The position numbers and the translations under genes are program-made. Below are positions 538-18,188 of a stretch of DNA of 18,188 nucleotides, piece by piece. This DNA comes from a virus (Duplodnaviria > Heunggongvirae > Uroviricota > Caudoviricetes): the IMG/VR virus record IMGVR_UViG_2671181094_000006. One strand, 5' to 3'. The notes below the pieces were generated by a model. The model worked only from the letters and a program-made list of their open reading frames with translations, searched no databases and was not told the origin of the DNA. How positions within the stretch are numbered: position 1 is the stretch's first letter; every line of letters starts with the position of its first letter.

Positions 538-717
538 AATCTATATATCTCACTGATTTTAATCAGTTAAATTCAATCTCACACTATGCAATTCAGTAAA
601 TATTGATACACCGATTGATATACGGATTATCGCACAGAGCCGAAATCACGCATAAGCATGAGCACATTCCAAAGAGCTGGGGATTATAGCAAGGAAATAT
701 TGTAGGGGTAATGAATA

Positions 718-745
718 CCATGCCTGCTTACGATTGCAGGCATGG
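718..745 (-). terminator. perfect 10-bp inverted repeat hairpin (CCATGCCTGC-N8-GCAGGCATGG), possible terminator of the 755-1294 gene or an island-boundary palindrome
   Basis: Read directly from the sequence. It lies 9 nt downstream of the TAA of the 755-1294 gene on the minus strand; the trailing U-tract is only moderate (UAUUCAUU). Confidence 0.35.
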
Positions 746-754
746 TGCAGACAT

Positions 755-1294
755 TTAATCCATGAGGCTGTTCAGTGCTTGCTCAACACTTTCATACTTC
801 TGCGTAGTTGGTTTACCTGTTGCGTTTTTAACCATTGAGAACAAAACCACCTCGCCGCTTAGGTCTGAAACACCAGTTGACTCTAAATACGGCAATAATT
901 CTTTCTCATAGAACTCAATTTCTTTTAGTAGCATTTCATCAGGCCTACCAGCCCAAGAATTACGCTCCGGGGACTTTCCACGTTTTATAGAGTAATTAAG
1001 CGAAAATTCTTTATTTTCATATTTGAACTCAACTGCACCATCACAACCAAAGAAGCTTCCTGTGAGTTTTGAGAAATCAATGAGAGTATCAAGGCCGCCG
1101 TTATAAGTGGCTTTCAACTTAGGAGTCTGGCCTGTAATTGTAAATCCTTTAGATTTAAAAAATTCCAAAACATCTTTCTGAATAGCGGTAGCAGCATCAT
1201 TTATTTGTTTATTCAACAACTCGCGCCGAGGAGCGCTGAATTCTTCAATTTTTGCTTTAAGATCTTGTAGTTTCATTTTGTTAGCTAATGACAT
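755..1294 (-). CDS. hypothetical protein, AT-rich orphan cargo gene (179 aa from ATG 1294; the ORF track extends to 1369)
   Basis: Preferred start MSLANKMKLQDLKAKIEEF is preceded by AAGGAA at about 7 nt spacing. Codon usage is visibly AT-rich compared with hpt and the island backbone. No motif recognised. Confidence 0.6.
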   Translation of the reverse strand: MSLANKMKLQDLKAKIEEFSAPRRELLNKQINDAATAIQKDVLEFFKSKGFTITGQTPKLKATYNGGLDTLIDFSKLTGSFFGCDGAVEFKYENKEFSLNYSIKRGKSPERNSWAGRPDEMLLKEIEFYEKELLPYLESTGVSDLSGEVVLFSMVKNATGKPTTQKYESVEQALNSLMD

Positions 1295-1502
1295 ATAAAT
1301 TCCTTGTATATCCAGAGTAATAGCTGTGCATAGTCTATGCGATTTCATCCTACTGCTATAAAACATCAAATTCCATAAACATAACCATCAATTAGTTATA
1401 AATGCCTCGATGTTGAATGCGTCCCCCATACTCAACCGGGAATGGGCTGAGCACATTTATCATGACTGTGACCACCAGCCATGACGGCGGATTGTCATGA
1501 AT

Positions 1503-1547
1503 TACTAATGTATGATAGCACTGTCATACAATAAGGAATCTCCCACT
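1503..1547 (+). promoter_or_regulatory. conserved promoter/operator of paralog A (TATGAT -10-like element inside the inverted repeat TGTATGA-N8-TCATACA, then AAGGAA RBS)
   Basis: About 45 bp upstream of the start is conserved with the equivalent region at 5885-5929 (tgtatgatag..ct.tc..acaataaggaa). Confidence 0.45.
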
Positions 1548-1907
1548 ATGAGACTAACCAGCCGCAAAAAGACGATACTCAGCTACTTCGAACCGGATAA
1601 CCGCGACTGGGTGACGGGTGAGATCGGCGCACCTCCCCTTGATGTATCCGGCGTGGCGTACCTGCTGTATGGGACAGGCCTCGAAGACAACCGGCACTGG
1701 CTCGAATCCACCAGACGAACGCTGGAAGCAATGGTGAAAGATGGGTTGCTGGAGAGGTACCGGAGCAGGGAGGCGCGGAGTATCGTTATGGGCGGCGAGA
1801 CGACCGCTACCGTTGTCCGTTACGGCCTGCCGGGTACCGTTTCAGTGGTACGCGATACGGGAGGTGCAGACGGCACGATAGAAGGCGAATATGTGCGGGT
1901 CGTTTAA
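1548..1907 (+). CDS. conserved hypothetical protein, paralog A1 (119 aa), possible winged-helix-like regulator
   Basis: MRLTSRKKTILSYFEPDNRDWVTGEIGAPPLDVSGVAYLLYG... aligns along its whole length with the 5930-6289 product (MRMTSRKKEILSYFEPDNRDWVTGEIGAPPFDVSGVAYLLHG...). Start and upstream region are conserved between the two copies. Confidence 0.7.
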   Translation: MRLTSRKKTILSYFEPDNRDWVTGEIGAPPLDVSGVAYLLYGTGLEDNRHWLESTRRTLEAMVKDGLLERYRSREARSIVMGGETTATVVRYGLPGTVSVVRDTGGADGTIEGEYVRVV

Positions 1908-2095
1908 CGACGTGGATTATCTGGCCTCTTCCACTGGTAGGCTGGTGCCGTCATCCTCCGGCGGTGCCGTTCTTTAGCAGCGAGCGTTCCCGCAACCCTG
2001 CAACGTAACTCCAGCATATCGGTGGCATTCAGCTCATTCCCCTGCAGGCGGGCCAGCTCTTCAATTACCGCCTCGATTTTCTTCTGTTTTAACAC
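1904..2095 (-). CDS. small hypothetical protein A2 (63 aa, GTG start) with C-terminal APAYQWKRP...RR motif
   Basis: Convergent with A1, with the stops overlapping by 4 nt. The C-terminal motif is shared with the 6945-7130 product (RAPAYQWKKPAPRR). AGGAA lies 8 nt upstream of the GTG. Confidence 0.5.
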   Translation of the reverse strand: MLKQKKIEAVIEELARLQGNELNATDMLELRCRVAGTLAAKERHRRRMTAPAYQWKRPDNPRR

Positions 2096-2201: not shown

Positions 2202-2789
2202 TTAATCGGTATCGTCGGCCAGGGCATACAGCAACGAAGGGATCACTCTCCGCATGGCTGTTTCTTCGGTTTCATCGCTCATGAGAGTCAGGGTGTAATC
2301 CCGGCACTCGTAAATCACATCATATGCAGACAGGCCGAACGCGCCGCCCGCAATGATCTGCCCAATTTCAACATCTGGCGTTTCAACAATCGACAGCCGG
2401 TAGCCGCCGAACGTCACAGGAGGGTTATAAGGCCCTTCGCTTACAAACAGCTCTACGGCCTTTGCAGCAACCTGGGCTCGTTCGTCCGGGTCCACCCCGG
2501 ACACCTTACCGGCACCTGACACCATGATGCGCTTAATCTCCGCAACACTCATTTCCACCAGCGTATACCCCTGCACCTCACCAGCTGGAGCAGGCTTGGT
2601 TTTACCCCTGGCATTCTTCGTACGCGGGTCACTGGCGCTGCGGTATCGTGCCAGATAAGTATCACAGGCCTCCTGGTCAATCTTCCCGTCAACCCGCGCC
2701 GGAAATCCTTCATGACTCTCCCAGTTATACAGTGCCTGCCGGCTCATTCCGGCATGTTTTGCGTACTGGCTGACGCTCATTAGTGACAT
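2202..2789 (-). CDS. HTH DNA-binding protein, phage Nu1-like (small-terminase-like N-terminus) / packaging-associated candidate
   Basis: N-terminus VSQYAKHAGMSRQALYNWESHEGFP resembles the lambda gpNu1 winged-HTH pattern (KKQLADIFGASIRTIQNWQEQGMP). AGGAG lies 7 nt upstream of ATG 2789. The gene sits beside a dense TGTCAA repeat array. Confidence 0.6.
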   Translation of the reverse strand: MSLMSVSQYAKHAGMSRQALYNWESHEGFPARVDGKIDQEACDTYLARYRSASDPRTKNARGKTKPAPAGEVQGYTLVEMSVAEIKRIMVSGAGKVSGVDPDERAQVAAKAVELFVSEGPYNPPVTFGGYRLSIVETPDVEIGQIIAGGAFGLSAYDVIYECRDYTLTLMSDETEETAMRRVIPSLLYALADDTD

Positions 2790-2825: not shown

Positions 2826-3040
2826 TGTGTCAACCCGCCGGCGGGAAACTGTCAATCAAACGTCAAGGGATCAACCGCTTGACACTTTTTTCTGTCAACT
2901 TGACACTTTTCGGGCTGAAAGTGTCAATCAAACTGTCAATCAAAACTTTCACGAATTCCCCTGCATCACGCGCCGCCTCTGGACCTTAACAACCTGACAA
3001 CAAAAAAGTGTCAAGTGTAAAGTGTCAATCAAATTGAAAA
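2826..3040. repeat. array of TGTCAA / TTGACA motifs (four copies of TGTCAATCAAA, several GTGTCAA/TTGACAC, palindrome TGTCAAnTTGACA, 12-bp palindrome CCCGCCGGCGGG); candidate protein-binding (cosB-like or operator) region
   Basis: Read directly from the sequence in the 350-bp non-coding gap between the tfa stop (3138) and the Nu1-like gene start (2789). Confidence 0.6.
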
Positions 3041-3137
3041 CCTGCAGCTACAAAAACACTGCGGCGCGCAATGCCCGTGCCTTACAAAAGTCTCAGGAAG
3101 GACCCATTTTTTCTGAGGGCCATTCCATAGTTATCAC

Positions 3138-3563
3138 TTAATGAACTTCCGGCATCACAGGCCATTCAATATCTGGGGCATCATCAGGGTTAACACGACT
3201 GAGCAGAACGGAGTATTTTTCCCAGTGTTCCAGTCGCGTTTTTTCATCCAAGGTAGCCATTCCGTATTTCACAGCACGCGCTAAAGGGACGATAACGTCC
3301 TCAGCCTTTGTACGTTGCCGCTCTTTTTCAGCCCCAGCCAGCCTGGATAACTGTGCTTTGGTCTGTGGAGGTACATCGACCCACGAGGGCAAGCCATCAG
3401 CCCCTACCCCCCTTTGCTTACCTTCTGGTGGAACCCTGGTGAACTCGTGAAAAACGTTATCACTGACTGCTATAAGGTCCGCTGGTAGAGAATTGTTGTC
3501 CCGATAAGCTGGTAATAATTCATCAGGGTAAAAACACGCCGTTGACGCACTAAAATGATACAT
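3138..3563 (-). CDS. tail fibre assembly protein (Tfa-like chaperone)
   Basis: Start MYHFSASTACFYPDE and C-terminus HWEKYSVLLSRVNPDDAPDIEWPVMPEV match the conserved ends of phage Tfa chaperones (...W.KYR.LL.RVD...APDIEWP..P). Its ATG at 3563 follows the upstream TAG at 3566-3568 closely. Confidence 0.7.
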   Translation of the reverse strand: MYHFSASTACFYPDELLPAYRDNNSLPADLIAVSDNVFHEFTRVPPEGKQRGVGADGLPSWVDVPPQTKAQLSRLAGAEKERQRTKAEDVIVPLARAVKYGMATLDEKTRLEHWEKYSVLLSRVNPDDAPDIEWPVMPEVH

Positions 3564-3565
3564 GA

Positions 3566-4099
3566 CTATTCCCCTATAGCTAACCATCCAAAATTATCTG
3601 CATTACCCGAACTGCCGCTGATCCAGCCATATGCACGGAAACCGGAATTGGAATCATTGGTTACGGACACGTAACGATTTCCATCTGCGTACTTCGTAGC
3701 AACAATAGCAATAGCCCGCTTAGGAAAAGGTATCGGATACTGAACATTACCTGATGGTGAATTAATAGTGGCAGTTCCCATTTGAACAATAATATTTTTC
3801 TTTTCACCTGATGGTGTTCGGGTAGGAATAATACAGTAACCCTGTGAAGTAAGGGCACCTACGATGGGTTCAGATAGAAGGGCGGTGATCCTCAACTCAT
3901 CAATAACTTCGTTTAACTGACCATCATTTTCAGGCTCAAGCTGGCGGCCAGAACCCTCTACCACGCCCACCATCTCACGCTGCCAGGTATTAAAAATATC
4001 GGCAACAAGAATTGTTGGTGATACCCCATTAGCAACATTACCTTGTGTAAATTCCCCATTACTATCAGCAGTATCAGTGACTGAACTTATCTTACGCAT
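3566..4099 (-). CDS. tail-fibre-tip-like protein (177 aa), too short for a full fibre
   Basis: Directly upstream of and coupled to tfa, which is the usual fibre-chaperone arrangement. The C-terminal half is Gly/Ser/Asn-rich and looks beta-rich (...GWISGSSGNADNFGWLAIGE). The call is mainly positional. Confidence 0.45.
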   Translation of the reverse strand: MRKISSVTDTADSNGEFTQGNVANGVSPTILVADIFNTWQREMVGVVEGSGRQLEPENDGQLNEVIDELRITALLSEPIVGALTSQGYCIIPTRTPSGEKKNIIVQMGTATINSPSGNVQYPIPFPKRAIAIVATKYADGNRYVSVTNDSNSGFRAYGWISGSSGNADNFGWLAIGE

Positions 4100-4127: not shown

Positions 4128-4586
4128 CTATATAGAAAGCGTATCTGCCATACTCACCGGCTCGATATACTTCTCAAGCGCTAACAGAGCGGCGTTAAAA
4201 CCAGCACGATAGCCGTTTGTGTCACCGTTAATCATGCTGTGTTGAAATGCCGCCATGTTCTGGTCTTCGGCATCAAGGAACTCCCAGCCAGGATAAACTT
4301 TCTCCATAGCCCGCCGGGTAAAACGACTGAGCTGGCGAGCGCTGCCTTTTAGTCTGGCAATAGCCTTCTGATGTGGGATCCCTTCCGCGATAAGATGAAA
4401 TGCCTGTATCGGATTTTGTTTTGCCGCTTTGCTCACCGCTATCAGATGCGCATCAGAATGGGGGCATTCAGGGAGTTCCTCTTCTTCAAGCGATTGCTGA
4501 AGCTGGTGCATACGCTGCATACGGCGCCCGGAAAAGCCATATGCATGCGCATCAGGTTGCTGCTTGTTGAGGTGCTGAAAGTTCAT
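4128..4586 (-). CDS. hypothetical protein, paralog of the 4607-5290 product (start taken at MNFQHLNK)
   Basis: Shares N-terminus (MxFxHL) and the central block WEF.D.E...NGY.A...AL.AL.K..EP with the upstream gene. GGAG lies about 9 nt upstream of ATG 4586. Confidence 0.6.
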   Translation of the reverse strand: MNFQHLNKQQPDAHAYGFSGRRMQRMHQLQQSLEEEELPECPHSDAHLIAVSKAAKQNPIQAFHLIAEGIPHQKAIARLKGSARQLSRFTRRAMEKVYPGWEFLDAEDQNMAAFQHSMINGDTNGYRAGFNAALLALEKYIEPVSMADTLSI

Positions 4587-4606
4587 AACGCTCATCTCCG
4601 CAGCTC

Positions 4607-5290
4607 TCAGAGAGGAACCTGCGATTTTAGGAGTTCGGCTTCTCGTGCCGGCCCTTCAATCTTGCCATTCACCCGACGGGTATCCCCCGGCAGGCTCACA
4701 CCAGATGCCCGGATACGATCGTTACGGCGTGCAGCAGCCTGCGCGACCTCTTCCCGGTACTCTTCGTCAGCCTTACGGCGAGCATTCACATTCTGAGGTG
4801 ACATAGGGTCATAGTCGTTTTGCATCTTAGATGCCTTGCTGGCTAATGCCTTAATCTCGTCTTCTGTCAGAGGCTCTTCCATCTTCTTCAGCGCCTTCAG
4901 AGCGCTACTCTGGGCAGCAGAGTAACCATTTGCATCACGGTTCTGCGTTGAAAACGTTAGCGCCGAGCGAGCTTTCTCTTCGTCATCCTGAAATTCCCAG
5001 GTCGGGTCATTCTCTTCCATAAACTTTTGGGTAAACACAGAAAGCGCCATCGGCGACGATGCCAGTTGCAGCTTTATTTTCTTCGAAGAAAGTTCCGTTT
5101 CCTTCAGCAAACGAACCGCCAGAACCGGGTTATTTTTTGCCTCCGGGGAAACCGCGACATTGTGGCCGCGACTGTGCTGCTTAGGTCTGGCGATCCGGGC
5201 GTCGTCACTGTCCAGTTTCAGTGGCACATTCCCGTTATCAGACTCGCCTTTCGTTTTGGTTTTGCCTGACAGATGCGAGAAATCAAACAT
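4607..5290 (-). CDS. hypothetical protein, longer paralog with Lys/Glu-rich C-terminal extension (start taken at MFDFSHLSGK; the ORF track extends to 5383)
   Basis: Paralogy with 4128-4586 supports the internal start at 5290 (GAGGAA upstream). The alternative start at 5383 also has a GAGGAAA RBS. Confidence 0.55.
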   Translation of the reverse strand: MFDFSHLSGKTKTKGESDNGNVPLKLDSDDARIARPKQHSRGHNVAVSPEAKNNPVLAVRLLKETELSSKKIKLQLASSPMALSVFTQKFMEENDPTWEFQDDEEKARSALTFSTQNRDANGYSAAQSSALKALKKMEEPLTEDEIKALASKASKMQNDYDPMSPQNVNARRKADEEYREEVAQAAARRNDRIRASGVSLPGDTRRVNGKIEGPAREAELLKSQVPL

Positions 5291-5327
5291 GGATGGGTTT
5301 TCCTCAGATAGTTGGGGCTGTTTTTTC

Positions 5328-5528
5328 TTATCTTTCGTACCGAACGCTCTTAGCGCCCATGCGGGTAACGTCATTAACGGCATGGCATGCTTTCCTCTGG
5401 TTGGCGATTATCCGGCGGAGCCACATGAGTTTTTTCTTCTGCTTTCTGAACAGGCGCTCTCTCTTCGCCGCGGCAAACCATTCCGGTAACACCCAGCTTG
5501 TTTTGCTCCTGCACTCCTGGCACGGCAT
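5328..5528 (-). CDS. small basic hypothetical protein (66 aa)
   Basis: Its ATG overlaps the stop of the upstream 58-aa gene as TAATG, suggesting translational coupling. No motif recognised. Confidence 0.35.
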   Translation of the reverse strand: MPCQECRSKTSWVLPEWFAAAKRERLFRKQKKKLMWLRRIIANQRKACHAVNDVTRMGAKSVRYER

Positions 5529-5704
5529 TACTTTTTATTTGTTTCATGTCTACTAATCCCCTGACGTAAAAGGTGACGCGCCAGCTCCTGAATACTCGGG
5601 GCTGCGCCTACGGTAGAACGTCGGCATTCATCCTCACGGAGGCGCTGTAAACCTTCGAGAATCGGCTGATCAACAAGAATCGGCTTTTTGTTAGTGACTG
5701 CCAT
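5528..5704 (-). CDS. small putative DNA-binding protein (58 aa, ribbon-helix-helix/Arc-like pattern); not in the ORF track because it is under 60 aa
   Basis: Translated by hand: MAVTNKKPILVDQPILEGLQRLREDECRRSTVGAAPSIQELARHLLRQGISRHETNKK. A strong AGGAGG RBS lies 7 nt upstream of ATG 5704. It is the first gene of the leftward operon, divergent from 5930-6289. Confidence 0.45.
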   Translation of the reverse strand: MAVTNKKPILVDQPILEGLQRLREDECRRSTVGAAPSIQELARHLLRQGISRHETNKK

Positions 5705-5929: not shown

Positions 5930-6289
5930 ATGAGAATGACCAGCCGCAAAAAAGAGATACTCAGCTACTTTGAACCGGATAACCGCGATTGGGTAACAGG
6001 TGAGATTGGTGCGCCGCCGTTCGATGTGTCGGGTGTGGCCTACCTGCTTCATGGCATGGGATCATTCGGTAAACGCCACCAGCTCGAATCAACCCGGCGT
6101 ACGCTCGAAAGCATGGTTGCCGGTGGACTGCTTGAGCGAATGACAGTGTATGAATCCCGTCAGGTACGGCGCGGCGGTGAAACCAGCGCAACAGTCGTGC
6201 GCTACGGTTTACCGGGACAGTGTGCCGTTGTGCGAGATAGTGGCGGCGCTGATAACGCAATACCAGGTGAATACATGCGGGTCAGTTAA
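5930..6289 (+). CDS. conserved hypothetical protein, paralog B1 (119 aa)
   Basis: Full-length similarity to the 1548-1907 product; about 80% nucleotide identity over the first 130 nt by eye. Confidence 0.7.
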   Translation: MRMTSRKKEILSYFEPDNRDWVTGEIGAPPFDVSGVAYLLHGMGSFGKRHQLESTRRTLESMVAGGLLERMTVYESRQVRRGGETSATVVRYGLPGQCAVVRDSGGADNAIPGEYMRVS

Positions 6290-6824: not shown

Positions 6825-6944
6825 GCAAATCCTGAATAAATGCGAATCGGAAGGATAACGATACTGACGCACTCACAATTCTGTAAAGGTGAATAAAGGT
6901 AATTTGCTTAATACGCATAAGTTACATGTGGAATAATCCCATAT

Positions 6945-12345: not shown

Positions 12346-12359
12346 TCGTGTTACCTCCC

Positions 12360-12986: not shown

Positions 12987-13195
12987 GCTTTGCCGTCCAG
13001 ACTCAAATCCATATCAACTAACTCGCCTTCTACTGAATCCATCAGCTCGGGGATACCATCCAGAAGGGTAATGACTGCGCCAATAAGATGATCCGTGCCG
13101 CTATCTTTTTTAATCGGTGCTTCAAGCCAAAGAGAAAGAACTTGCTGCGCTTGCTTGATACGGCAGGCTGAATCAATCAGGGATAACTTGCTCAT
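12983..13195 (-). CDS. hypothetical protein (70 aa)
   Basis: Translationally coupled (ATGA overlaps at both ends). Confidence 0.55.
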   Translation of the reverse strand: MSKLSLIDSACRIKQAQQVLSLWLEAPIKKDSGTDHLIGAVITLLDGIPELMDSVEGELVDMDLSLDGKA

Positions 13196-13452
13196 GCGCT
13201 GCCCTCCCGATACTCGCGCATCTTCGTTAGTTCATCAGCCAGGCGATTAACTTTGCGCTCGGTTCTAATGGTTGCGCATCTCAATTCGGTGATTAATGTC
13301 GCAAGTCTGGCACCATAAAGCGGATTGGCGGCACGTAATGGCCCGTCCAGATAAAGATTCCATAACTCAAGCAATTCACTGGCATAGCGCACCGCTGCCG
13401 TTGCGTCACCTGTCGGGATTGTTTCTGGTTCAATTACGGCGACTGTATTCAT
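13192..13452 (-). CDS. hypothetical protein (86 aa)
   Basis: Translationally coupled (start/stop overlaps). Confidence 0.55.
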   Translation of the reverse strand: MNTVAVIEPETIPTGDATAAVRYASELLELWNLYLDGPLRAANPLYGARLATLITELRCATIRTERKVNRLADELTKMREYREGSA

Positions 13453-13712
13453 GCGCTGCCCTCCGCATCAATACGGGCTATATCGACAATCGCCAGGACT
13501 TTATCCAGCCAGCAATGCACGATGGCCGCCTGCTCATCGTCGAGGCGTGGTGCCAGCTCAGTCATAACGTAAGCCAGACCATTACGGGCGCGGGTCATGC
13601 GTTCCGCGGTACGCTCTGCCAGCGTAAAATCTTCCGGGTAGGGTTGTTCACGGGATAACATCGCCTCGGCCTGAAGCACTGCAGGATGGAGATAGATAGT
13701 GTGAATGTTCAC
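13449..13712 (-). CDS. hypothetical protein (87 aa, GTG start)
   Basis: GTG at 13712 overlaps the upstream stop as GTGA. AGGAGG lies 7 nt upstream. Confidence 0.55.
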   Translation of the reverse strand: MNIHTIYLHPAVLQAEAMLSREQPYPEDFTLAERTAERMTRARNGLAYVMTELAPRLDDEQAAIVHCWLDKVLAIVDIARIDAEGSA

Positions 13713-13888
13713 GCTGCCACCTCCTGAACACGGGTGATGCGAACGTGTTTATAACCGCCCTGCTGCGCCAATAACTGAGCGGTCGATTTGGCTGTATCCG
13801 GGCTGGCACCGGTCAGGGTGTAGTGAATGCCGACGGTGTTACCGCGCTTATTAACCGCGTATCCGTCAATCTGGAAGGTTTTACGCAT
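13709..13888 (-). CDS. hypothetical small protein (59 aa; start taken at MRKTFQIDGY, the ORF track extends further)
   Basis: GGAGGTG RBS lies 4-5 nt upstream of ATG 13888. The longer ORF-track start lacks an RBS. Confidence 0.55.
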   Translation of the reverse strand: MRKTFQIDGYAVNKRGNTVGIHYTLTGASPDTAKSTAQLLAQQGGYKHVRITRVQEVAA

Positions 13889-14084
13889 GACGCACCTCCG
13901 ACACCGGCAGGCGAGCAGCCAGAGAGAGGATAAAGTGCGGCGCCAAAATGCGGCGGGCGTCACGTTCGGTTGCGGCCTCGACGGACAGGCGGCAGGGAGT
14001 GGCCTTTTTGTCGTGACGGTTGAGCGCCAGAAAGCGCCAGATGTAGTTGTTCCGCCCTTGCGGGTGTGTGATATGATCGTTCAT
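13881..14084 (-). CDS. hypothetical small protein (67 aa, MNDHITHPQG...), first gene of the leftward operon
   Basis: This is the C-terminal 67 codons of the 391-aa track ORF 13881-15056. GAGG RBS upstream of ATG 14084. The rest of that long ORF crosses a promoter region, an opposite-strand gene and terminators. Confidence 0.5.
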   Translation of the reverse strand: MNDHITHPQGRNNYIWRFLALNRHDKKATPCRLSVEAATERDARRILAPHFILSLAARLPVSEVRHA

Positions 14085-14190
14085 AGCTGCCTCGTTATCT
14101 ACGCTAACGTTGGTGGTTAGAGGCCCGTTGGTGTTGTCGCACCTGCGGGCTTCGCTGTTTTTGTGCCTTACCTGTGCTTTAGCTGTGGAT

Positions 14191-14253
14191 AAGGTGTTTA
14201 AATACCTTATATCAAGGTGTTTAAATACGTCAAGCCAAAAGTATTTAAACACT
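14191..14253. promoter_or_regulatory. operator-like repeats: AAGGTGTTTAAATAC twice in direct orientation plus one inverted copy (GTATTTAAACAC), in a divergent promoter region
   Basis: Read directly. The repeat is centred on the palindrome TTTAAA. Lies between the leftward operon start (14084) and the rightward small gene (14317). Confidence 0.55.
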
Positions 14254-14316
14254 TCACAAATCTGTAGAGATGATTTATTTTCTCTAGTGTTAAAACACCA
14301 ACAGGAATCATCTTCA

Positions 14317-14520
14317 ATGGCTACAGGGCACAGAAACAACAAGTCTGCATACAAGGGAATCAGATTCCCATATGAATTGGTTGAGGAAATTGACGCCAGC
14401 GTAGAGCGAGAGAAAGCCGAAAACTCCGGGGCCAATTTCTCCGCATGGGTGCTGGATGCCTGCGGACGTAAGCTCAAATCAGAGCAGCGCAAAAAATCCA
14501 AAGCTGAGCCAGAGGCATGA
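14317..14520 (+). CDS. small putative DNA-binding regulator (67 aa, ribbon-helix-helix-like), candidate island repressor
   Basis: MATGHRNNKSAYKGIRFPYELVEEIDASVEREKAENSGANFSAWVLDACGRKL... The only plus-strand gene in this region, divergent from the replication operon across the operator repeats. The ORF-track N-terminal extension from 14110 looks non-coding. Confidence 0.5.
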   Translation: MATGHRNNKSAYKGIRFPYELVEEIDASVEREKAENSGANFSAWVLDACGRKLKSEQRKKSKAEPEA

Positions 14521-14807: not shown

Positions 14808-14894
14808 TTGACCATCAGCATTAACCCTGGTATGCTTAATCTGTTTCGGTTTTTCGTAGTGACATTGGCAGCTCTGCAAAGCTGCCTTTGTTTT
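14808..14894 (+). ncRNA. candidate short antisense RNA (about 50 nt) convergent on the 3' end of the Bro-N gene
   Basis: -35 TTGACC (14808-14813), 17-nt spacer, -10 TATGCT (14831-14836). Hairpin GGCAGC-N8-GCTGCC (14867-14886) followed by TTTGTTTT, which overlaps the Bro-N stop codon. Confidence 0.25.
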
Positions 14895-15510
14895 ATGCAT
14901 CATCTTCAACGCCCTCCAGCAATCCGGGTTGATACTTTCTCCATAATCCAATTTCTTCCATCTCAAGACGGGCTTTCTCTCCTTTGCACGCCTGTAGGTC
15001 GCTACCGCACTTACTGGCTTTCTTTGTGTACTGATCCTTGCGGCGACTGAAGTCATTTAGGAATGAGAACGGGACGCCGTATGAACCGGTTTTACGTATT
15101 GACGGGATTACTTCGCGGAACACCCAGTTTGTAAATCTGTGGGCAAACGAGCCTGTAGTAGAAGCTTTACGACTACGGGCAATCAGTTTATAAAAGCCTG
15201 ATTCTGCGGCCATATTCCAGCTACGTGCTCCACCACGTTTACCCGAATGACCCTCAGTTAAAGTTAGGGTCATTACCTCGTCGCCATCCAGAGAGGCAAC
15301 GGCACTGGTTGGATTGCTGATTTCCAGCGCCTGGCACACATCAGATACAACGAACCACGGCTCACCGAAAACATTCACGATCCTGACCGTGCGGCCTTCA
15401 AATTTAATTACTGAAATATCATTTTCACTTGCCGTGAAATTAGCCTTTTTGCTGGCTTCAGGGTGAGTCTTGCCGCTGCCAGTTAAGGCAGTAAATTTTT
15501 TCTGAGTCAT
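14893..15510 (-). CDS. Bro-N domain protein (phage antirepressor-like)
   Basis: N-terminal region FEGRTVRIVNVFGEPWFVVSDVCQALEISNPTSAVASLDGDE matches the Bro-N/antirepressor N-terminal signature. GGAG RBS upstream of ATG 15510. Confidence 0.75.
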   Translation of the reverse strand: MTQKKFTALTGSGKTHPEASKKANFTASENDISVIKFEGRTVRIVNVFGEPWFVVSDVCQALEISNPTSAVASLDGDEVMTLTLTEGHSGKRGGARSWNMAAESGFYKLIARSRKASTTGSFAHRFTNWVFREVIPSIRKTGSYGVPFSFLNDFSRRKDQYTKKASKCGSDLQACKGEKARLEMEEIGLWRKYQPGLLEGVEDDA

Positions 15511-15648
15511 TTCTATCGCTCCAAAAGTTGTTATTCAGAGCTGCCGCGACAGCGTTAGGTATGCTGCAATATTTCTAACGCAACACCACGCAACAAATTT
15601 TCTTTTCGCTGATCAGACGAAGTTGCGTGTGGTTGCATTGGCCTTGTG

Positions 15649-15933
15649 TTAGGCCGATTTACGGCTATATGGGTTATTGACGTTAGGTACAGCAGGGGGA
15701 TTACGAACCCACCAGAGCACATCGGACAAAAGCCAGGCGCAGCTATTGCGGCCAAAGTGGCAGCGCGGAGGAAAGCGGCCCTCTTGCTCCATCTTCCAAC
15801 GACTGGAGCGGGAAAGGCTTGTGATTTCGCCACATTCATCTTCACGAATCCGGCGATCAAACTTGAAGCCGTACTCCTCAAGAAGGTTACGGCGTTGTTC
15901 GGGGTTAGGTGGGGTAAAGATAATATTGTTCAT
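15649..15933 (-). CDS. alpA: AlpA-family phage transcriptional regulator (HTH)
   Basis: ...ITSLSRSSRWKMEQEGRFPPRCHFGRNSCAWLLSDVLWWVRN is typical of the AlpA HTH. Start taken at ATG 15933 with GGAGG 4 nt upstream; the ORF track extends to 15981. Confidence 0.75.
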   Translation of the reverse strand: MNNIIFTPPNPEQRRNLLEEYGFKFDRRIREDECGEITSLSRSSRWKMEQEGRFPPRCHFGRNSCAWLLSDVLWWVRNPPAVPNVNNPYSRKSA

Positions 15934-16029
15934 ACTGCCTCCACTGTTTCTAGGTTTGTGGAGGTTATTGTTATCAATCAAAAAGAACTTGTCTGAAATA
16001 TTCCGGAAAATTAACGGAATTTCCGCAGA

Positions 16030-16869
16030 TTACTCATCGACAGAGAAAGGGATATCAACATTATCAACCCATCCCTGAACAGCCCTTCCTGAGGGTGCCA
16101 CGATGTTAAGATTTTTAAAATCTTTGCTTATATCACTGTCATTTTTATCAAGAAATCGGCGCGGATTTTCTGCCACCTCGTTTCCATAATGAATGCGCAA
16201 AAGCGACTTTATAAACTGAGCACGTTTATTTATGGTTTTTGCTGAGTGAGCTTCATCGGGATTTTTTGACGGTTCTATCTTTTCTTTTTCACCATTAATA
16301 TAACTTGGAAATTCATCACCATCATTACATTTTTTAATTGAAACAAAATCAGATTTAGAAATATAGAGATCTTCAACCTCGAAATTAAGAAATTCATCCG
16401 TTTCAAAAGAAACAAACATCTTGCTTTCTGCCGAAAACCAAAAATCATCCAAGCTTGGTTGGAAACTGTAAAGTGCGGTCATTCCGTATGCATTTTGCGG
16501 TAAAGCCCATAATCCGCTAAATGAGCAGGGATAAAACCTTTCTTCGCGTGGGAGGTTATCTAAATCTATATCTTCATATCTCATTAATGAGACAACTCTG
16601 GAAAATTTATCGATGGTATATTTTTCTTTAAAAAGTTCATCTCTGAGACGTTGAGCAGATTCAAATTGTTCCTCTGTGAATCTCTTTAAATTCCTTTCTT
16701 CTTTTTCTACACCATCACCAATAAAACGGACATATCCGCGGCCTTCCTCAAAAGAAACATACAACTTGATTGCTCCAATCGAAGCCCAATGAAGCAAATC
16801 TTCAACTTTACATCCGAGCAACTCAGCAGCGCGAACTACTGAGTAATATTCCCGTAATGGCATTCCCAT
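16030..16869 (-). CDS. hypothetical protein (279 aa): N-terminal HTH-like segment fused to an acidic domain of unknown function; AT-rich orphan between int and alpA
   Basis: N-terminus YYSVVRAAELLGCKVEDLLHWASIGAIKLYV resembles MerR/excisionase-type HTH. GAGGGTG RBS 5 nt upstream of ATG 16869. The gene is visibly AT-rich compared with int and alpA. Palindromes TTCCGGAA and CGGAATTTCCG lie just downstream (15996-16028). Confidence 0.7.
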   Translation of the reverse strand: MGMPLREYYSVVRAAELLGCKVEDLLHWASIGAIKLYVSFEEGRGYVRFIGDGVEKEERNLKRFTEEQFESAQRLRDELFKEKYTIDKFSRVVSLMRYEDIDLDNLPREERFYPCSFSGLWALPQNAYGMTALYSFQPSLDDFWFSAESKMFVSFETDEFLNFEVEDLYISKSDFVSIKKCNDGDEFPSYINGEKEKIEPSKNPDEAHSAKTINKRAQFIKSLLRIHYGNEVAENPRRFLDKNDSDISKDFKNLNIVAPSGRAVQGWVDNVDIPFSVDE

Positions 16870-16961
16870 ATCGTCACCCTCAACGCCCCTAAATAACTTG
16901 CGGGCCAGGCGGGTAGGGTTTCCCGCTTTTCGGTTGGCCGACCTAGACCCGCAATATCAGT

Positions 16962-18188
16962 TTAATCTCTATTCGCTACAGGTAACAGAACCACATTTTT
17001 ATGATTACCCGCAAGAAGTTCTAAACGTTCATGCCATTTGTTCAGCGCATCCAGCTTCTCCGGCAAGTACAGGCTACGGTTATATATAGCCATGACGCCC
17101 GGTAGAGCATGACCCAGCAGCAACTCTACAATATGCGGTGCTATGCCCATATTGTTTAACCCCGTGGAGAACGTGCGCCGCAGATCGTGAAGTGTCCACG
17201 GCTCGTTATGATGGAAATCTTTAAAAAGCCGTCGCCCTTTCAAAGATACAGCTTGCCGGGTGCGCTCTTCTCCCAGCAGCAGGCCTGTTTTACCCGTCTC
17301 GCGTTTTAACTCTTCCAGCCACGGGCGTATAGCTTCAGGGATTGATCTCACGATTTTCTCGCGGGTTTTGCTGTGCTCTTTCGGGACTGTCCAAATCCAC
17401 GAGGTAAAATCCCACTCCGACCATCGAGAGAGGCGAACTTCCATCGTTCGAGCGCCAAACAGCACCAGCATTTTGAGAAGACGTGAATAATACGGCTGCT
17501 GATCATCGCTGTCTGTGCAGCGCCATACATCGGCCAGCTCGCTATCTGACAATACGCGGTCACGTTGACCGGATGGCTGGCCTACATCCTGAATGGTGAG
17601 AAAGGCTAGAGCATCACTGGCGGCATAGCGGCGAACCTTGCAGAAGCGTAACGCCTGTTTAGAAATCTGGAACATGCGGCCGGCGGTCATGGGTTTGGTC
17701 AGATTTATTTCATCAAAACAGGCCACCCAATGACGGGTTTCACATCTGGTGAGGGGATAACGACCAAGGCGCGGGTAAATATGCTTGCGTAGCTGTGCCC
17801 TTACCAGCTCCTCATCGCTGCGCTTTCTCCTGGCGTAGTTCACCAGCCAGTATTCGAGAGCATCCTGTACTGTCACAGGTTTAAGCGTTTCTTCGGTGCT
17901 CAGTTCAAGCTCTGTTTTTGGATCAAGACCACCAGCCAGCCACTGGCGACACTTTTCCCGCTTTTCTCTCGCCGCTTTTAGCGACAAATCCGGGTAACGG
18001 CCAAGCGTTAAACGTTCGAGTTTGCTACCCCTTCCGCCCAATCGGTAAGCGAACACCCAGCTAACGTTACCTTGCTTCGAAACCTTAATGCTCAGTCCTT
18101 CACCATCGGCAATCATGATCGGTGCTTCACGCTCAGAACCCTGCAGCGCTTTTAGCTTTTTGTCGCTCAGTTTGTTTGTACCAGCCAT
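16962..18188 (-). CDS. int: tyrosine recombinase, P4-type integrase (N-terminal arm-binding domain plus catalytic domain)
   Basis: 408 aa. N-terminal DGEGLSIKVSKQGNVSWVFAYR resembles the P4-family arm-binding motif. C-terminus has HDLRRTFST and LLGHA...AIYNRSLY (catalytic R, H-x-x-R, Y). The start codon sits exactly at the window edge, so the true N-terminus could lie beyond it. Confidence 0.9.
   Translation of the reverse strand: MAGTNKLSDKKLKALQGSEREAPIMIADGEGLSIKVSKQGNVSWVFAYRLGGRGSKLERLTLGRYPDLSLKAAREKREKCRQWLAGGLDPKTELELSTEETLKPVTVQDALEYWLVNYARRKRSDEELVRAQLRKHIYPRLGRYPLTRCETRHWVACFDEINLTKPMTAGRMFQISKQALRFCKVRRYAASDALAFLTIQDVGQPSGQRDRVLSDSELADVWRCTDSDDQQPYYSRLLKMLVLFGARTMEVRLSRWSEWDFTSWIWTVPKEHSKTREKIVRSIPEAIRPWLEELKRETGKTGLLLGEERTRQAVSLKGRRLFKDFHHNEPWTLHDLRRTFSTGLNNMGIAPHIVELLLGHALPGVMAIYNRSLYLPEKLDALNKWHERLELLAGNHKNVVLLPVANRD

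What the first reader, a model, noticed from the sequence alone, without database searches (positions are those of the whole stretch)
538..18188. Island is larger and more mosaic than a typical P4-like or PICI element and lacks recognisable psu/delta/sid
A P4-type integrase, AlpA and an alpha-like replicon indicate a satellite, yet the element is at least 17.6 kb. I did not recognise P4 capsid-remodelling genes. Instead there is a Nu1-like/fibre/Tfa module and duplicated regulator modules. It may be an undescribed satellite lineage or a composite of two elements in tandem. hpt appears intact, so the island does not disrupt it.
Basis: partly seen in the sequence, partly recalled or inferred. 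Interest (0 to 1): 0.5.

Follow-up and report, generated by a model that had tools for sequence, protein, structure and literature searches.

The report
hpt-site phage satellite with own fibre
The island is a phage-inducible chromosomal island (a phage satellite) of an already catalogued group that inserts at the start of the hpt gene; what is unusual is that it carries its own DNA-packaging signal, a small-terminase-like protein and a tail fibre that all match one class of helper phage.

Summary
It is a Gram-negative PICI of the 'hpt PICI' subfamily catalogued by the Williams laboratory (PMC10111431). It carries their att block TATGAAACATA and their four zones (integration, Bro, replication, late). 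Its primase is 78% identical to that of EcCIMP1, an experimentally mobilised 19,963-bp PICI. Int, AlpA, SSB and PerC are 44-61% identical and syntenic to the prototype EcCICFT073. No psu, delta, sid or epsilon homologue exists. There is no internal att site or second integrase, so it is not a tandem pair. It is a recombinational mosaic with a duplicated terminal module. Its size, about 17.85 kb, lies within the published 10-20 kb range.

New here is the late zone. It holds a cos site whose 60-nt cosQ-cosN block is 59/60 identical to that of an E. coli prophage with a lambda-like head and Mu-like tail, and includes the annotated cohesive end of phage BZS1. A private repeat array follows, and it co-varies with a Nu1/Rpp-like protein. 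A tail fibre plus chaperone share their N-terminal domain with that phage class. The packaging and fibre functions are inferred, not shown.

The parts
1..537 (-). hpt (hypoxanthine phosphoribosyltransferase), flanking chromosomal gene; its first codons are regenerated by the island
   Evidence: 100% aa identity to hpt of island-bearing E. coli EC09 and VG1046-3E9. K-12 has Thr at codon 4, the window has Ile.
528..538 (.). attL identity block TATGTTTCATA (reverse complement TATGAAACATA); contains the hpt start codon
   Evidence: Same block as published for hpt PICIs. The empty site in K-12 and attR in EC09 share it. It occurs only once in the window.
603..625 (.). arm-type repeat TTGATACACCGATTGATA (probable integrase arm-binding sites)
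   Evidence: The same repeat lies next to attR in EC09 (L001 22640-22670). There is no other copy in the window. The function is inferred.
755..1369 (-). g204, att-proximal accessory gene of unknown function in a low-GC stretch (39%); RefSeq relatives start at the ATG giving 179 aa
   Evidence: phrog_14564, 7.5e-22. 99% identical in EC09 and VG1046. GC.
1512..1907 (+). g131, paralogue of g119 (second copy of the terminal module)
   Evidence: 70-74% aa identity to g119 and to the terminal + strand gene of EcCIMP1.
1904..2095 (-). g63, small conserved PICI protein, paralogue of g61; last gene of the late operon
   Evidence: phrog_7271, 7e-25. 38% identical to the last ORF of EcCICFT073 and 40% to the EcCIMP1 counterpart.
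2202..2789 (-). g195, Nu1/Rpp-like packaging-specificity protein: N-terminal winged HTH of small-terminase type and a private C-terminal domain
2827..3028 (-). cosB-like array: 9 copies of (GA)TTGACA(C/G) in both orientations, between cosN and g195
   Evidence: 9 of the 10 TTGACAS sites of the 18-kb window lie here. Relatives with g195 variant B have GATTCACAC at the equivalent positions. Helper-type phages have GGTAACA repeats in the same place.
3053..3112 (-). cosQ-cosN block; the 12-nt cohesive-end sequence GCATTGCGCGCC is at 3063-3074
   Evidence: Exact match to the annotated cosL of Serratia phage BZS1. 0.01 matches expected by chance in the window. 59/60 identical to the cos region of an E. 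coli prophage. Present in every island that has g195 and in none that lacks it. Alignment with BZS1 and phiNP.
3138..3587 (-). tail fibre assembly chaperone (Tfa)
   Evidence: Pfam Caudo_TAP 1.3e-30; phrog_188 3.7e-39. 100% aa identity in Klebsiella-type locus L015.
3566..4099 (-). short tail fibre (177 aa): conserved N-terminal domain of about 68 residues and a Gp53-like_C tip
   Evidence: Pfam Gp53-like_C 1.7e-10. The N-terminus aligns with genuine fibres that follow the Mu gp48-like baseplate gene in BZS1, phiNP and prophages. A 99% identical protein cluster with 116 member sequences was found; the 8 places examined are all PICI-like islands.
4128..5383 (-). g155 (4128-4595) and g258 (4607-5383): paralogous helical proteins of unknown function, conserved core of the late operon
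5374..5704 (-). g57 (5374-5547) and g58 (5528-5704): two small ORFs that open the late operon. I read g58 as a possible ribbon-helix-helix regulator from its sequence only; this was not tested.
   Evidence: Both ORFs are conserved in position in the loci. g58 is 98% identical in L015 and 90-93% in L001, L005 and L010. No family match.
5930..7130 (.). first copy of the terminal module: g119 (5930-6289, +), PRiA4_ORF3 protein (6282-6872, -), g61 (6945-7130, -)
   Evidence: PRiA4_ORF3 2e-42. 75-97% identical to the att-proximal end of EcCIMP1 and of the 12-kb island L004. A sharp similarity break falls at 5868-5886 in all relatives.
7362..8707 (-). g203 (7362-7973), whose translation contains two CxxC pairs (my reading, not tested), and a PerC-family regulator (8396-8707)
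   Evidence: PerC 2e-29. 87% identical to EcCIMP1_025, which silenced LEE1 expression in C. rodentium. g203 translation.
8719..9180 (-). SSB
   Evidence: Pfam SSB 4.9e-14. 61% identical to the SSB of EcCICFT073.
9284..9542 (.). replication origin: at least 13 GGTGGTTCA iterons in both orientations, including a perfect 30-nt inverted repeat, with AT-rich flanks
   Evidence: It lies just downstream of the primase gene, where PICI origins are reported (PMC10111431). The function is inferred.
9568..13963 (-). replication zone: primase-helicase (9568-12345), g208, g70, g86, g87 and an Icd-like protein (13709-13963)
   Evidence: Zn_Ribbon_Prim, Toprim_3 and DUF927 domains. Primase 78%, g208 64% and g87 55% identical to EcCIMP1. 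The Icd-like name comes from RefSeq annotation of a 96-97% identical protein.
14110..14520 (+). DUF3950 / YlcI-YnfO family gene on the opposite strand (the real start is probably internal, about 59 aa)
   Evidence: Pfam DUF3950 6e-6; phrog_949 2e-21. Same position and orientation as in EcCICFT073 and EC09.
14893..15510 (-). Bro-N / anti-repressor family protein (Bro zone)
   Evidence: Bro-N 1.6e-15; phrog_2593 1.2e-52.
15649..15981 (-). AlpA family regulator/excisionase
   Evidence: Phage_AlpA 4.3e-10. 44% identical to AlpA of EcCICFT073.
16030..16869 (-). g279, variable gene between int and alpA in a low-GC stretch; I read a possible N-terminal HTH from the sequence only (not tested); function unknown
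   Evidence: Only 32-37% identical to the gene in the same position in EC09 and VG1046. No family match. GC 39-42%.
16886..16953 (-). int-alpA RNA motif (Rfam RF02996)
   Evidence: 62.6 bits against a gathering score of 35.8, E 3.6e-11, full-length match.
16962..18188 (-). tyrosine integrase (P4/arm-type); the window ends at its start codon
   Evidence: Pfam domains. 95-96% identical to the integrases of the E. coli hpt islands, 48% to EcCICFT073 Int, 24-26% to P4 and EcCIMP1 Int.

Best explanation
The island is a Gram-negative phage-inducible chromosomal island (PICI) of the hpt-integrating subfamily, about 17.85 kb long and built from exchangeable modules.

Shown by sequence:
- It has recombined at an 11-bp block that includes the hpt start codon, and it regenerates the gene.
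- It has the four PICI zones. Integration: int, int-alpA RNA, g279, AlpA. Bro: a Bro-N protein and a YlcI/YnfO gene on the opposite strand. Replication: Icd-like protein, small ORFs, primase-helicase, iteron origin, SSB. Late: PerC through g63.
- The late zone holds a cos site whose cosQ-cosN block is nearly identical to that of temperate phages with a lambda-like head and terminase and a Mu-like contractile tail (BZS1, phiNP, an E. coli prophage).
- A private array of TTGACAC repeats follows, then a gene (g195) whose N-terminal domain has the small-terminase/Rpp fold.
- The same zone encodes a short tail fibre and its chaperone. The N-terminal domain of the fibre is the one found on the fibres of that same phage class.

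Inferred mechanism:
1. A helper of that class induces AlpA. The island excises and replicates from its own origin.
2. g195 binds the private repeats and brings the helper terminase to the shared cosN, so that island concatemers are packaged in preference to helper DNA. This follows the Rpp/TerS logic of known E. coli PICIs.
3. The island fibre, folded with its Tfa, mounts on the helper baseplate through the shared N-terminal domain. It thereby sets or widens the host range of the transducing particles.
For: Classification:
- The att block TATGAAACATA and flanks match the published hpt PICIs.
- Primase 78%, g208 64%, PerC 87% and PRiA4 97% identical to EcCIMP1, which is helper-induced and transduced.
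- Int 48%, AlpA 44%, SSB 61% and PerC 48% identical to EcCICFT073, in the same gene order.
- int-alpA RNA at 62.6 bits.
- Iteron origin downstream of the primase gene.
- The four-zone layout and the 10-20 kb size range are as published.

cos:
- The 12-mer equal to BZS1 cosL occurs once, with 0.01 matches expected by chance.
- The 60-nt block is 59/60 identical to the cos region of an E. coli prophage and is conserved in BZS1 and phiNP.
- It is present in all 12 islands that carry g195 and absent from EcCIMP1, L004, EcCICFT073 and P4.
- The cosQ-N21-cosN pattern occurs in at least 120 IMG/VR contigs. Of 80 read, 66 have a Nu1-like TerS downstream, and most of those contigs are 38-51 kb. Five have a g195-like gene, on contigs of 15.7, 17.8 and 17.9 kb and two larger ones.

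g195:
- PHROG small terminase 7.9e-8; BLASTP to phiNP TerS E 7e-7.
- 9 of the 10 TTGACAS sites in the window lie between cosN and g195.
- Protein variant A always accompanies GATTGACAC repeats, and variant B always accompanies GATTCACAC repeats.

Fibre:
- The N-terminal 68 residues are conserved with genuine phage and prophage fibres that sit after the Mu gp48-like gene.
- Another hpt PICI (VG1046-3E9) has the same N-terminus with a glycine-rich tip, and prophages have both tip types.
- All 8 contexts examined for the 99% identical fibre are PICI-like islands.
- The late zone is about 97% identical to Klebsiella-type loci whose hpt is only 86.6% identical.
Against: - No experiment: induction, excision, packaging and fibre incorporation are all inferred.
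- The window lacks attR, so the far boundary is taken from related genomes.
- The C-terminal 120 residues of g195 have no match to TerS. It is therefore unknown whether it binds TerL directly or acts through the helper TerS as Rpp does.
- A single 17.85-kb unit is about 40% of a helper genome of about 45 kb, and a dimer about 80%. How it fits the capsid is unknown, and no capsid-size gene was recognised.
- Helper-type terminase genes are rare in E. coli (68 of 5426 complete genomes). None of the 30 listed records is one of the named PICI-bearing strains; the other 38 records were not shown.
- The fibre-Tfa DNA itself is absent from all 5426 complete E. coli genomes.
- The published PICI criterion 'no phage structural genes' is not strictly met.
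Confidence: 0.8

Rival explanations
1. The island is two satellites integrated in tandem, or a satellite fused to the remnant of a second one. The duplicated g61/63 and g119/131 modules would mark the two original ends.
For: - The terminal module is present twice (1506-2095 and 5887-7130).
- In the 12-kb relative L004 and in EcCIMP1 the element ends right after g119, which corresponds to window 5886.
- Every relative shows a sharp similarity break at 5868-5886.
- Tandem PICIs are documented at other sites.
Against: - There is only one integrase.
- There is no second copy of the att core, even with 3 mismatches allowed, and none of the arm repeat.
- The 538-5886 block has no replication or integration genes of its own.
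- The same joined architecture occurs in EC09 and 1368KP, and, with another integrase, at the yicC-dinD site.
- In Klebsiella-type islands this block is the only late zone.
- So it is a late module acquired by recombination, not a second element.
Confidence: 0.08
2. The island is a divergent P4-like satellite of a P2-type helper in which psu, delta and sid have been replaced.
For: - P4-type integrase.
- The AlpA protein is 31% identical to P4 ORF88, which the P4 record annotates as an excisionase and transcriptional regulator.
- The primase N-terminus is 34% identical to P4 alpha.
- SatelliteFinder's authors note that int, AlpA and a primase are shared by P4-like elements and 'Type C PICI'.
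Against: - No homologue of sid, delta, psu, epsilon or cI.
- No P2/P4 cos within 3 mismatches.
- No Rfam match to any P4-type immunity RNA family.
- The cos present is that of a different phage class.
- The integrase is 24% identical to P4 Int but 48% to EcCICFT073 Int.
- The C-terminal half of the primase is DUF927 and matches EcCIMP1 at 78%.
Confidence: 0.03
3. The island is a decayed prophage of the lambda-like-head / Mu-like-tail class, of which only cos, a TerS-like gene, a fibre and Tfa survive.
For: - cos, a Nu1-like N-terminal domain, a fibre and Tfa all derive from that phage class.
Against: - The int-alpA-Bro-primase-ori-SSB organisation, with int pointing inward, is the PICI signature and not the prophage one.
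- There are no capsid, portal, TerL, sheath, tube, baseplate or lysis genes.
- The gene set is conserved intact, at about 15-18 kb, in many genomes and genera.
- cosB and g195 have diverged coherently from the phage versions. That indicates selection, not decay.
Confidence: 0.04
4. The classification as a PICI stands, but the fibre and Tfa act against the helper or against competing phages rather than retargeting the satellite particles. For example, they could cap baseplates with a non-cognate or defective fibre, as a form of tail-assembly interference.
For: - PICIs commonly interfere with helper reproduction, and tail-assembly interference systems encoded on PICIs are known (PMC11364771).
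- The fibre is short (177 aa).
- The slot is variable: it is empty in EC09 and holds a different tip in VG1046-3E9.
Against: - Genuine phages of this class use fibres of the same short size, 162-165 aa (BZS1; prophage fibre P0022).
- The PICI fibres keep intact tips of the same two types as the prophage fibres, and one comes with a dedicated chaperone. This is the pattern of functional receptor-binding-tip exchange.
- No PADLOC match.
- The two roles are not mutually exclusive.
Confidence: 0.2

Closest known systems
hpt PICIs (Williams laboratory, NAR Genom Bioinform 2023, PMC10111431; for example Eco10586.16.hpt)
   Same: - Same integration site and the same 11-bp identity block TATGAAACATA at the 5' end of hpt.
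- Same flanking att sequences.
- Same four-zone organisation.
   Different: - That paper catalogues 49 such islands without describing their late-zone content. The words fiber and fibre do not occur in its main text.
- The two instances seen in the supplement are named as 15 and 16 kb. This one is about 17.85 kb because it carries both an EcCIMP1-type distal block and the Klebsiella-type late operon.
EcCIMP1 (E. coli MP1; helper phage Kapi1; ISME J 2025, PMC11773190)
   Same: - Primase 78%, g208 64%, g87 55%, PerC 87%, PRiA4_ORF3 97%, g119 90% and g61 75% identical.
- Also carries a Bro/Ant protein and an Icd-like gene.
- Also large (19,963 bp).
- Also carries homologues of helper virion proteins in its late zone.
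   Different: - The integrase is only 26% identical and targets tRNA-Thr.
- EcCIMP1 has no cos-g195 module and no fibre. In their place it has genes annotated as a DNA ejection protein and a lytic transglycosylase, which from my own knowledge I read as P22-type ejection proteins.
- Its helper is Kapi1, which by its name (vB_EcoP) is a podovirus, not a myovirus.
EcCICFT073 and its Rpp packaging-redirection system (ISME J 2018, PMC6092414; Mol Cell 2019, PMC6739421; Murialdo and Feiss 2022, PMC9026076)
   Same: - Same backbone synteny, with Int 48%, AlpA 44%, SSB 61% and PerC 48% identical.
- Same packaging logic: the PICI cos shares cosQ and cosN with the helper but has a different site where cosB lies.
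   Different: - g195 has no detectable sequence similarity to the EcCICFT073 late-zone proteins. It is longer (195 aa against 132 residues for the RppC chain in 6hn7).
- It faces a multi-copy repeat array rather than the single R3-like site proposed for those PICIs.
- Helpers there are lambda, phi80 and a CFT073 lambdoid prophage. Here the cos is that of phages with a Mu-like contractile tail.
- EcCICFT073 carries capsid and decoration genes, not a fibre.
P4 (satellite of P2)
   Same: - Arm-type integrase.
- AlpA-like protein (P4 ORF88).
- Zn-ribbon/Toprim primase N-terminus (34% identical).
- Iteron origin near the primase gene.
   Different: - No sid, delta, psu, epsilon or cI.
- No P2-type cos.
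- Different C-terminal half of the primase.
- Different att site.
cfPICI (capsid-forming PICIs)
   Same: - A PICI backbone that also carries phage-derived virion genes.
- Published cfPICI work concerns how the helper tail sets the host range of the particles.
   Different: - No capsid, portal, TerL or head-tail connector genes here.
- The division of labour is the reverse: cfPICIs make the capsid and steal the tail, whereas this island would use the helper's whole virion and add only a fibre.

Membership tests
P4-like satellites (SatelliteFinder core: int, psu, delta, sid, alpA, epsilon, alpha) | psu-delta-sid capsid and transcription hijack operon, and epsilon | tested here: not met
   No Pfam or PHROG match. 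tblastn of all 27 window proteins against the P4 genome hits only alpha (N-terminus), ORF88 and int.
P4-like satellites | P2/P4-type cos site | tested here: not met
   No match to GGCGAGGCGGGGAAAGCAC within 3 mismatches. I supplied this query sequence from memory; it was not checked against the P4 record.
P4-like satellites | integrase, AlpA-type regulator and alpha-type primase | tested here: met
   All three are present, but they are the components shared with PICIs. Identities to P4 are only 24%, 31% and 34% (N-terminal half only).
Gram-negative PICI (Fillol-Salom 2018 criteria; four-zone model of PMC10111431) | conserved order: inward-pointing int, AlpA, (Bro zone), primase/replication module with ori downstream of pri, then a late zone | tested here: met
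   Gene order. Synteny and 44-61% identity to EcCICFT073, and 55-97% to EcCIMP1. Iterons at 9284-9542.
Gram-negative PICI | dedicated att site not used by prophages | tested here: inconclusive
   Every occupied hpt site seen here holds a PICI-like island: three E. coli genomes (H1-H3, two read in full) and 6 of the 8 Klebsiella-type loci read. PMC10111431 lists 49 hpt PICIs. A systematic search for prophages at hpt was not made.
Gram-negative PICI | absence of phage structural and lysis genes | tested here: not met
   A fibre and Tfa are present. No lysis, capsid, portal, TerL or tail-shaft genes were found. Validated PICIs also break this rule: EcCICFT073 has capsid and decoration genes, and EcCIMP1 has a DNA ejection protein gene. 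I therefore treat the criterion as a tendency, not a bar to membership.
Gram-negative PICI | size about 12-15 kb (published range 10-20 kb) | tested here: met
   About 17.85 kb, with attR placed by analogy with EC09.
Gram-negative PICI | helper-dependent induction, replication and high-frequency packaging | not testable with these tools
   Sequence indications only: a cos shared with a phage class and a TerS/Rpp-like gene.
hpt PICI subfamily (PMC10111431) | attL/attR identity block TATGAAACATA at the start of hpt | tested here: met
   Window 528-538 for attL. attR lies outside the window and was seen only in the related island of EC09.
SatelliteFinder PICI model (int; alpA/stl/merR; pri-rep; capsid morphogenesis; terS; tail and holin profiles forbidden) | at least 4 of 5 core components and no forbidden tail or holin gene | not testable with these tools
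   The programme and its profiles are not available here. By analogy, int, alpA and pri-rep are present and g195 is TerS-like only in its first 65 residues. No capsid-morphogenesis gene was recognised, and the fibre or Tfa may hit a forbidden tail profile. My prediction is Type C, or rejection.
Rpp (redirecting phage packaging) proteins | PICI protein with a TerS-like winged-HTH domain that retargets the helper terminase to a PICI cos sharing cosN but not cosB | tested here: inconclusive
cfPICI | own capsid, portal, TerL and head-tail adaptor/connector genes | tested here: not met
   No such Pfam or PHROG match in any ORF.

The most novel reading that the evidence does not exclude
A widespread PICI lineage in Klebsiella, Escherichia, Serratia and other Enterobacterales carries a complete 'address kit' for one helper class. 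The kit comprises the helper's cosQ-cosN, a private cosB array read by its own TerS/Rpp-like protein, and its own receptor-binding tail fibre with chaperone. The fibre plugs into the helper baseplate through a shared N-terminal domain. On this reading the satellite, not the helper, decides which cells the transducing particles enter. That would explain why the late module is about 97% identical in E. coli and in Klebsiella-type genomes whose flanking hpt is only 86.6% identical. Satellite-encoded host-range determinants of this kind are not described in the papers I could search. Tail genes are used as exclusion criteria by the standard satellite finder, so such elements may be systematically missed.
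Probability: 0.35. Interest if true: 0.7.

Novelty: new variant of a known kind. Interest (0 to 1): 0.45.

Why it matters
As a classification problem the finding is resolved. The island belongs to a catalogued PICI subfamily, and its size and mosaicism are ordinary for that family.

The late zone is what deserves attention, for three reasons.

1. It names a probable helper class from sequence alone, through two independent links (cos and the fibre N-terminus). Helper identification is the usual bottleneck in satellite biology.
2. It offers a natural specificity-swap pair for testing how satellites redirect cos packaging: two g195 variants whose repeat arrays differ at one base.
3. It shows tail fibre genes as a recurrent, conserved part of a satellite. 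Current detection tools treat tail genes as grounds for rejection.

If the fibre is incorporated into particles, satellites could set their own host range. That bears on the spread between genera of the defence-type cargo (for example SEFIR-TIR) seen in the Klebsiella-type relatives.

Tried and rejected
- **Megablast of the whole window against 50,697 phage records:** only short, scattered matches.
- **tRNA scan:** none, so the att site is not a tRNA gene.
- **Lambda cosN and P2/P4 cos searches:** one lambda-like site with one mismatch inside the primase gene, at chance level, and no P2/P4 cos. Both query sequences were supplied from memory.
- **Internal att core and arm-repeat searches:** none. 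This led me to reject the tandem model.
- **PADLOC and NCBIfam scans of ten unassigned proteins each:** nothing usable. The single PADLOC hit, mad1 at E 0.0024, covers only the HTH of g195.
- **Pfam at E up to 5 for the unknowns:** only sub-threshold noise. The g258 match to ART-PolyVal (16 bits against a cut-off of 31) is not credible.
- **Profile searches of the g195 and g258 families against PDB sequences:** nothing significant.
- **tblastn of g195 against phage records:** no match at E 1e-3. The relation to TerS appeared only with the PHROG profile, a direct pairwise BLAST and the fold search.
- **Tai tail-assembly-interference systems:** considered. The paper describes proteins that target the central fibre or needle, and nothing in it links them to this fibre.
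- **Promoter scan upstream of hpt:** no minus-strand sigma-70-like site found. How hpt is transcribed after integration remains open.
- **Rfam:** no match to any family except int-alpA RNA and a sub-threshold symR-like match, so no P4-type immunity RNA was detected.

Full report
**Layout of the window**

The window begins with hpt (1-537, minus strand) and ends exactly at the start codon of a tyrosine integrase (16962-18188, minus strand). Almost all genes in between are on the minus strand. There is no tRNA gene. GC content swings between 39% and 59%.

hpt is at least 99% identical to that of most E. coli genomes. No complete E. coli genome among 5426 covers more than 44% of the window, and only scattered pieces match sequenced phages.

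**Checking the observation**

- an integrase with an arm-type DNA-binding domain;
- AlpA (15649-15981);
- a 925-aa Zn-ribbon/Toprim/DUF927 primase (9568-12345);
- SSB, PerC, a PRiA4_ORF3 protein and a Bro-N anti-repressor-like protein;
- a 177-aa tail fibre with a Gp53-like_C tip (3566-4099);
- a tail fibre assembly protein (3138-3587);
- a 195-aa protein whose first 65 residues match the small-terminase PHROG (2202-2789).

I then ran tblastn of all 27 window proteins against the P4 genome. Only three matches appeared: the N-terminal half of alpha (34%), P4 ORF88, an AlpA-like excisionase/regulator (31%), and Int (24%). Nothing matched sid, delta, psu, epsilon or cI.

The duplications are real. 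g131 matches g119, g63 matches g61, and g155 matches g258.

**Boundaries and the hpt gene**

I compared three sequences: the empty site in K-12, the island at the same site in E. coli EC09, and the window. All share the block TATGTTTCATA, at window 528-538, which contains the hpt start codon.

- The island has therefore recombined into the first codons of hpt and rebuilt them. Codon 4 is Ile here and Thr in K-12. The native promoter region is displaced to the far side of the island.
- In EC09 the second copy of the block lies about 190-200 bp beyond the integrase start. The element is thus about 17.85 kb, and its attR lies just outside the window.
- An arm-type repeat, TTGATACACCGATTGATA, sits next to both att sites.

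**What family it belongs to**

Three published reference points settle this.

1. The Williams laboratory reported 49 PICIs 'in the hpt gene'. Their supplementary alignments give the identity block TATGAAACATA with the same flanks as here (PMC10111431). The same paper defines four ordered zones for Gram-negative PICIs (integration, Bro, replication, late), gives 10-20 kb as the size range, and describes capture of helper late genes into the late zone. The window fits zone by zone.

2. EcCIMP1 is a 19,963-bp E. coli PICI shown experimentally to be induced and transduced by phage Kapi1 (PMC11773190). Its identities to the window are: primase 78%, g208 64%, g87 55%, PerC 87%, PRiA4_ORF3 97%, g119 90% and g61 75%.

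3. The prototype EcCICFT073 has the same order: int, alpA, (YlcI/YnfO on the opposite strand), Icd-like, small ORFs, primase, SSB, PerC. Int is 48%, AlpA 44%, SSB 61% and PerC 48% identical.

Two further features fit. The Rfam int-alpA RNA motif lies between int and the next gene, at 62.6 bits. At least 13 GGTGGTTCA iterons lie just downstream of the primase gene, where PICI origins are reported.

The island is therefore a PICI, not a P4-like element and not a new lineage. Its size is inside the family's range.

**Tandem pair or mosaic?**

The att core, even with three mismatches allowed, and the arm repeat each occur only once. There is only one integrase.

Relatives show what happened:
- A 12-kb island at the yicC-dinD site (L004) and EcCIMP1 both end immediately after g119, which corresponds to window position 5886.
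- Another island at the yicC-dinD site (L005), with a different integrase, continues with the same block as window 2100-5870.
- In the Klebsiella-type islands this block is the only late zone, and similarity to the window breaks sharply at 5868-5874.

The window thus joins an EcCIMP1-like body to a late operon of the Klebsiella type, and a g61/63 plus g119/131 module remains on each side. This is recombinational mosaicism inside one element, not two elements side by side.

**The late operon**

The 177-aa fibre belongs to a 99%-identical protein cluster with 116 member sequences. All 8 genomic places I read are PICI-like islands, 6 of them at hpt. All carry the same gene run: 58 aa, 57 aa, 258 aa, 152 aa, fibre, Tfa, 194/195 aa, then a small ORF of 62-73 aa. 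Three different primase types accompany this run. A variable slot after SSB holds, for example, SEFIR-TIR or HATPase proteins.

Window 2903-5874 is about 97% identical to these loci. Their hpt is only 86.6% identical to the window's, which indicates recent exchange between genera.

The 195-aa and 258-aa proteins have homologues of constant length in many Enterobacterales. None has a Pfam domain or a functional name.

**A cos site shared with one phage class**

The best phage match to the fibre is the fibre of Serratia phage BZS1 (39% over the full length). BZS1 has a lambda-like head and terminase module and a Mu-like contractile tail, and its record annotates a 12-nt cohesive end.

- That 12-mer, GCATTGCGCGCC, occurs once in the window, at 3063-3074 on the minus strand. 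It lies between Tfa and the 195-aa gene and in the same orientation relative to that gene as cos is to Nu1 in the phage. 0.01 matches are expected by chance.
- The similarity extends to a 60-nt cosQ-cosN block (3053-3112). This block is 59/60 identical to the region upstream of the small-terminase gene of an intact-looking E. coli prophage of the same class, in strain 20KM2222. It is also conserved in BZS1 and in Citrobacter phage phiNP.
- The 12-mer is present in all 12 islands that carry the 195-aa gene. It is absent from EcCIMP1, L004, EcCICFT073 and P4.
- A scan of IMG/VR for the cosQ-N21-cosN pattern found at least 120 contigs. Of 80 read, 66 have a Nu1-like gene downstream, and most of those contigs are 38-51 kb. 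Five have a g195-like gene, on contigs of 15.7, 17.8 and 17.9 kb and two larger ones.

**A private cosB and its reader**

Downstream of cosN the phages carry repeats of GGTAACA before Nu1. The island carries nine copies of TTGACA(C/G) instead, and these are 9 of the 10 such sites in the whole window.

Relatives fall into two classes:
- Islands whose protein begins MSLMSVSQYAKHAGMSRQALYNW have GATTGACAC repeats.
- Islands whose protein begins MLMSVSQYAEHSGMSRRSFYNW have GATTCACAC at the equivalent positions.

A one-base change repeated across the array, together with changes in the predicted helix-turn-helix, is the signature of a protein reading those sites.

This is the logic established for Rpp in EcCICFT073-type PICIs: same cosQ-cosN as the helper, a different site where cosB lies, and a PICI protein with a TerS-like domain (PMC9026076). 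The protein here is not related in sequence to the EcCICFT073 late-zone proteins. Its C-terminal 120 residues are unlike TerS. I therefore cannot say whether it contacts TerL directly or works through the helper's TerS.

**The fibre**

The first 68 or so residues of the island fibre align, with more than 20 invariant positions, to genuine fibres. These genuine fibres lie directly after the Mu gp48-like baseplate gene in BZS1, in phiNP, in two prophages and in the 20KM2222 prophage, where identity is 54% over 76 residues.

After that point the sequences diverge into different tips. A second hpt PICI (VG1046-3E9) has, in the same slot, an intact 276-aa fibre with the same N-terminus (70% identical) and a glycine-rich tip. 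EC09 has only a 59-aa ORF there. Prophages of this class carry both tip types, and fibres as short as 162-165 aa.

A conserved attachment domain with exchangeable tips, plus a chaperone, is the pattern of a working receptor-binding fibre. I infer that the fibre mounts on the helper baseplate. Whether its main effect is retargeting of the particles or interference with the helper cannot be decided from sequence.

**What stays unknown**

- g155, g258, g57, g58, g203, g279, g204, the PRiA4_ORF3 protein and g119/g131 have no assignable function. The g258 model has no fold match.
- No capsid-size gene was recognised. One unit is about 40% of a 45-kb helper genome and two units about 80%, so I could not work out how the DNA fits the head.
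- Helper-type terminase genes occur in only 68 of 5426 complete E. coli genomes, and the fibre-Tfa DNA in none.
- No promoter for hpt was predicted in the island DNA upstream of it.

**Verdict**

It is wrong on the two proposed novelties, since the lineage is described and there is no tandem pair.

The element is a member of the hpt PICI subfamily. Its late zone is a variant not described in the papers I could search. It combines a helper-matched cos, a co-varying private cosB and TerS/Rpp-like protein, and a satellite-encoded fibre with its chaperone. Cos and the fibre N-terminus independently point to a helper with a lambda-like head and a Mu-like tail.

Noticed in passing
window 16886-16953 (-): A full-length match to the Rfam int-alpA RNA motif (RF02996, 62.6 bits) lies in the 92-bp gap between the integrase stop and the next gene. 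The motif's function was not looked up. Here the gene downstream is the 279-aa variable gene rather than alpA itself.
   Followed up: partly
window 519-760: [quoted passage not shown] No sigma-70-like promoter was predicted on the hpt strand.
   Followed up: partly
L011-L018, between SSB and the 58-aa gene; equivalent to window 5874-8718: In the Klebsiella-type relatives this slot holds different cargo in each island: SEFIR-TIR (477 aa), HATPase_c_3 (673 aa), DUF4325 with two unknowns, HTH_3-Peptidase_M78, or an IS. It looks like a defence hotspot. In the window the slot is filled by PerC, g203, g61, PRiA4_ORF3 and g119.
   Followed up: no
L015 12800-20534: One island with the same late operon is not at hpt. 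It abuts head genes (S49 protease, decoration protein, major capsid) and the sheath gene of a prophage of the inferred helper class. It may be a helper-embedded PICI of the kind described in PMC10111431.
   Followed up: no
L004 6920-8910: At the yicC-dinD site the 12-kb relative is followed by two full-length dinD genes in tandem. This suggests that the island carries its own dinD copy, or regenerates the gene on integration, much as the window's island does for hpt.
   Followed up: no
L003 5132-11149 (EcCIMP1): In its late zone EcCIMP1 carries genes annotated as a phage DNA ejection protein, a lytic transglycosylase domain protein and a DUF2824 protein. From my own knowledge I read these as P22-type ejection proteins. 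They would parallel the fibre here: in both cases the satellite carries copies of virion proteins that act at cell entry.
   Followed up: partly
window 13881-15056 (-): A 391-aa ORF spans the region between the Icd-like gene and the Bro-N gene. It overlaps the conserved DUF3950 gene on the opposite strand, and no gene is annotated at the corresponding place in EC09 or VG1046-3E9. It is very probably not a gene. About 900 bp here is otherwise non-coding. It gave only a sub-threshold symR-like Rfam match (14085-14156, 32 bits against a gathering score of 61).
   Followed up: partly
window 16030-16869 and 755-1369: The two lowest-GC stretches of the island (39-42%) are the gene between int and alpA (g279) and the att-proximal gene g204. 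g279 is only 32-37% identical to the gene at the same position in the otherwise close E. coli relatives. That suggests a second variable cargo position.
   Followed up: no
L146 (E. coli 20KM2222, prophage next to kch): An intact-looking prophage of about 41 kb has lambdoid early genes, a lambda-like head module and a Mu-like tail. It carries the same cosQ-cosN block as the island, an array of GGTAACA repeats, and a fibre with the shared N-terminus and a glycine-rich tip. It is a concrete candidate helper in E. coli.
   Followed up: partly
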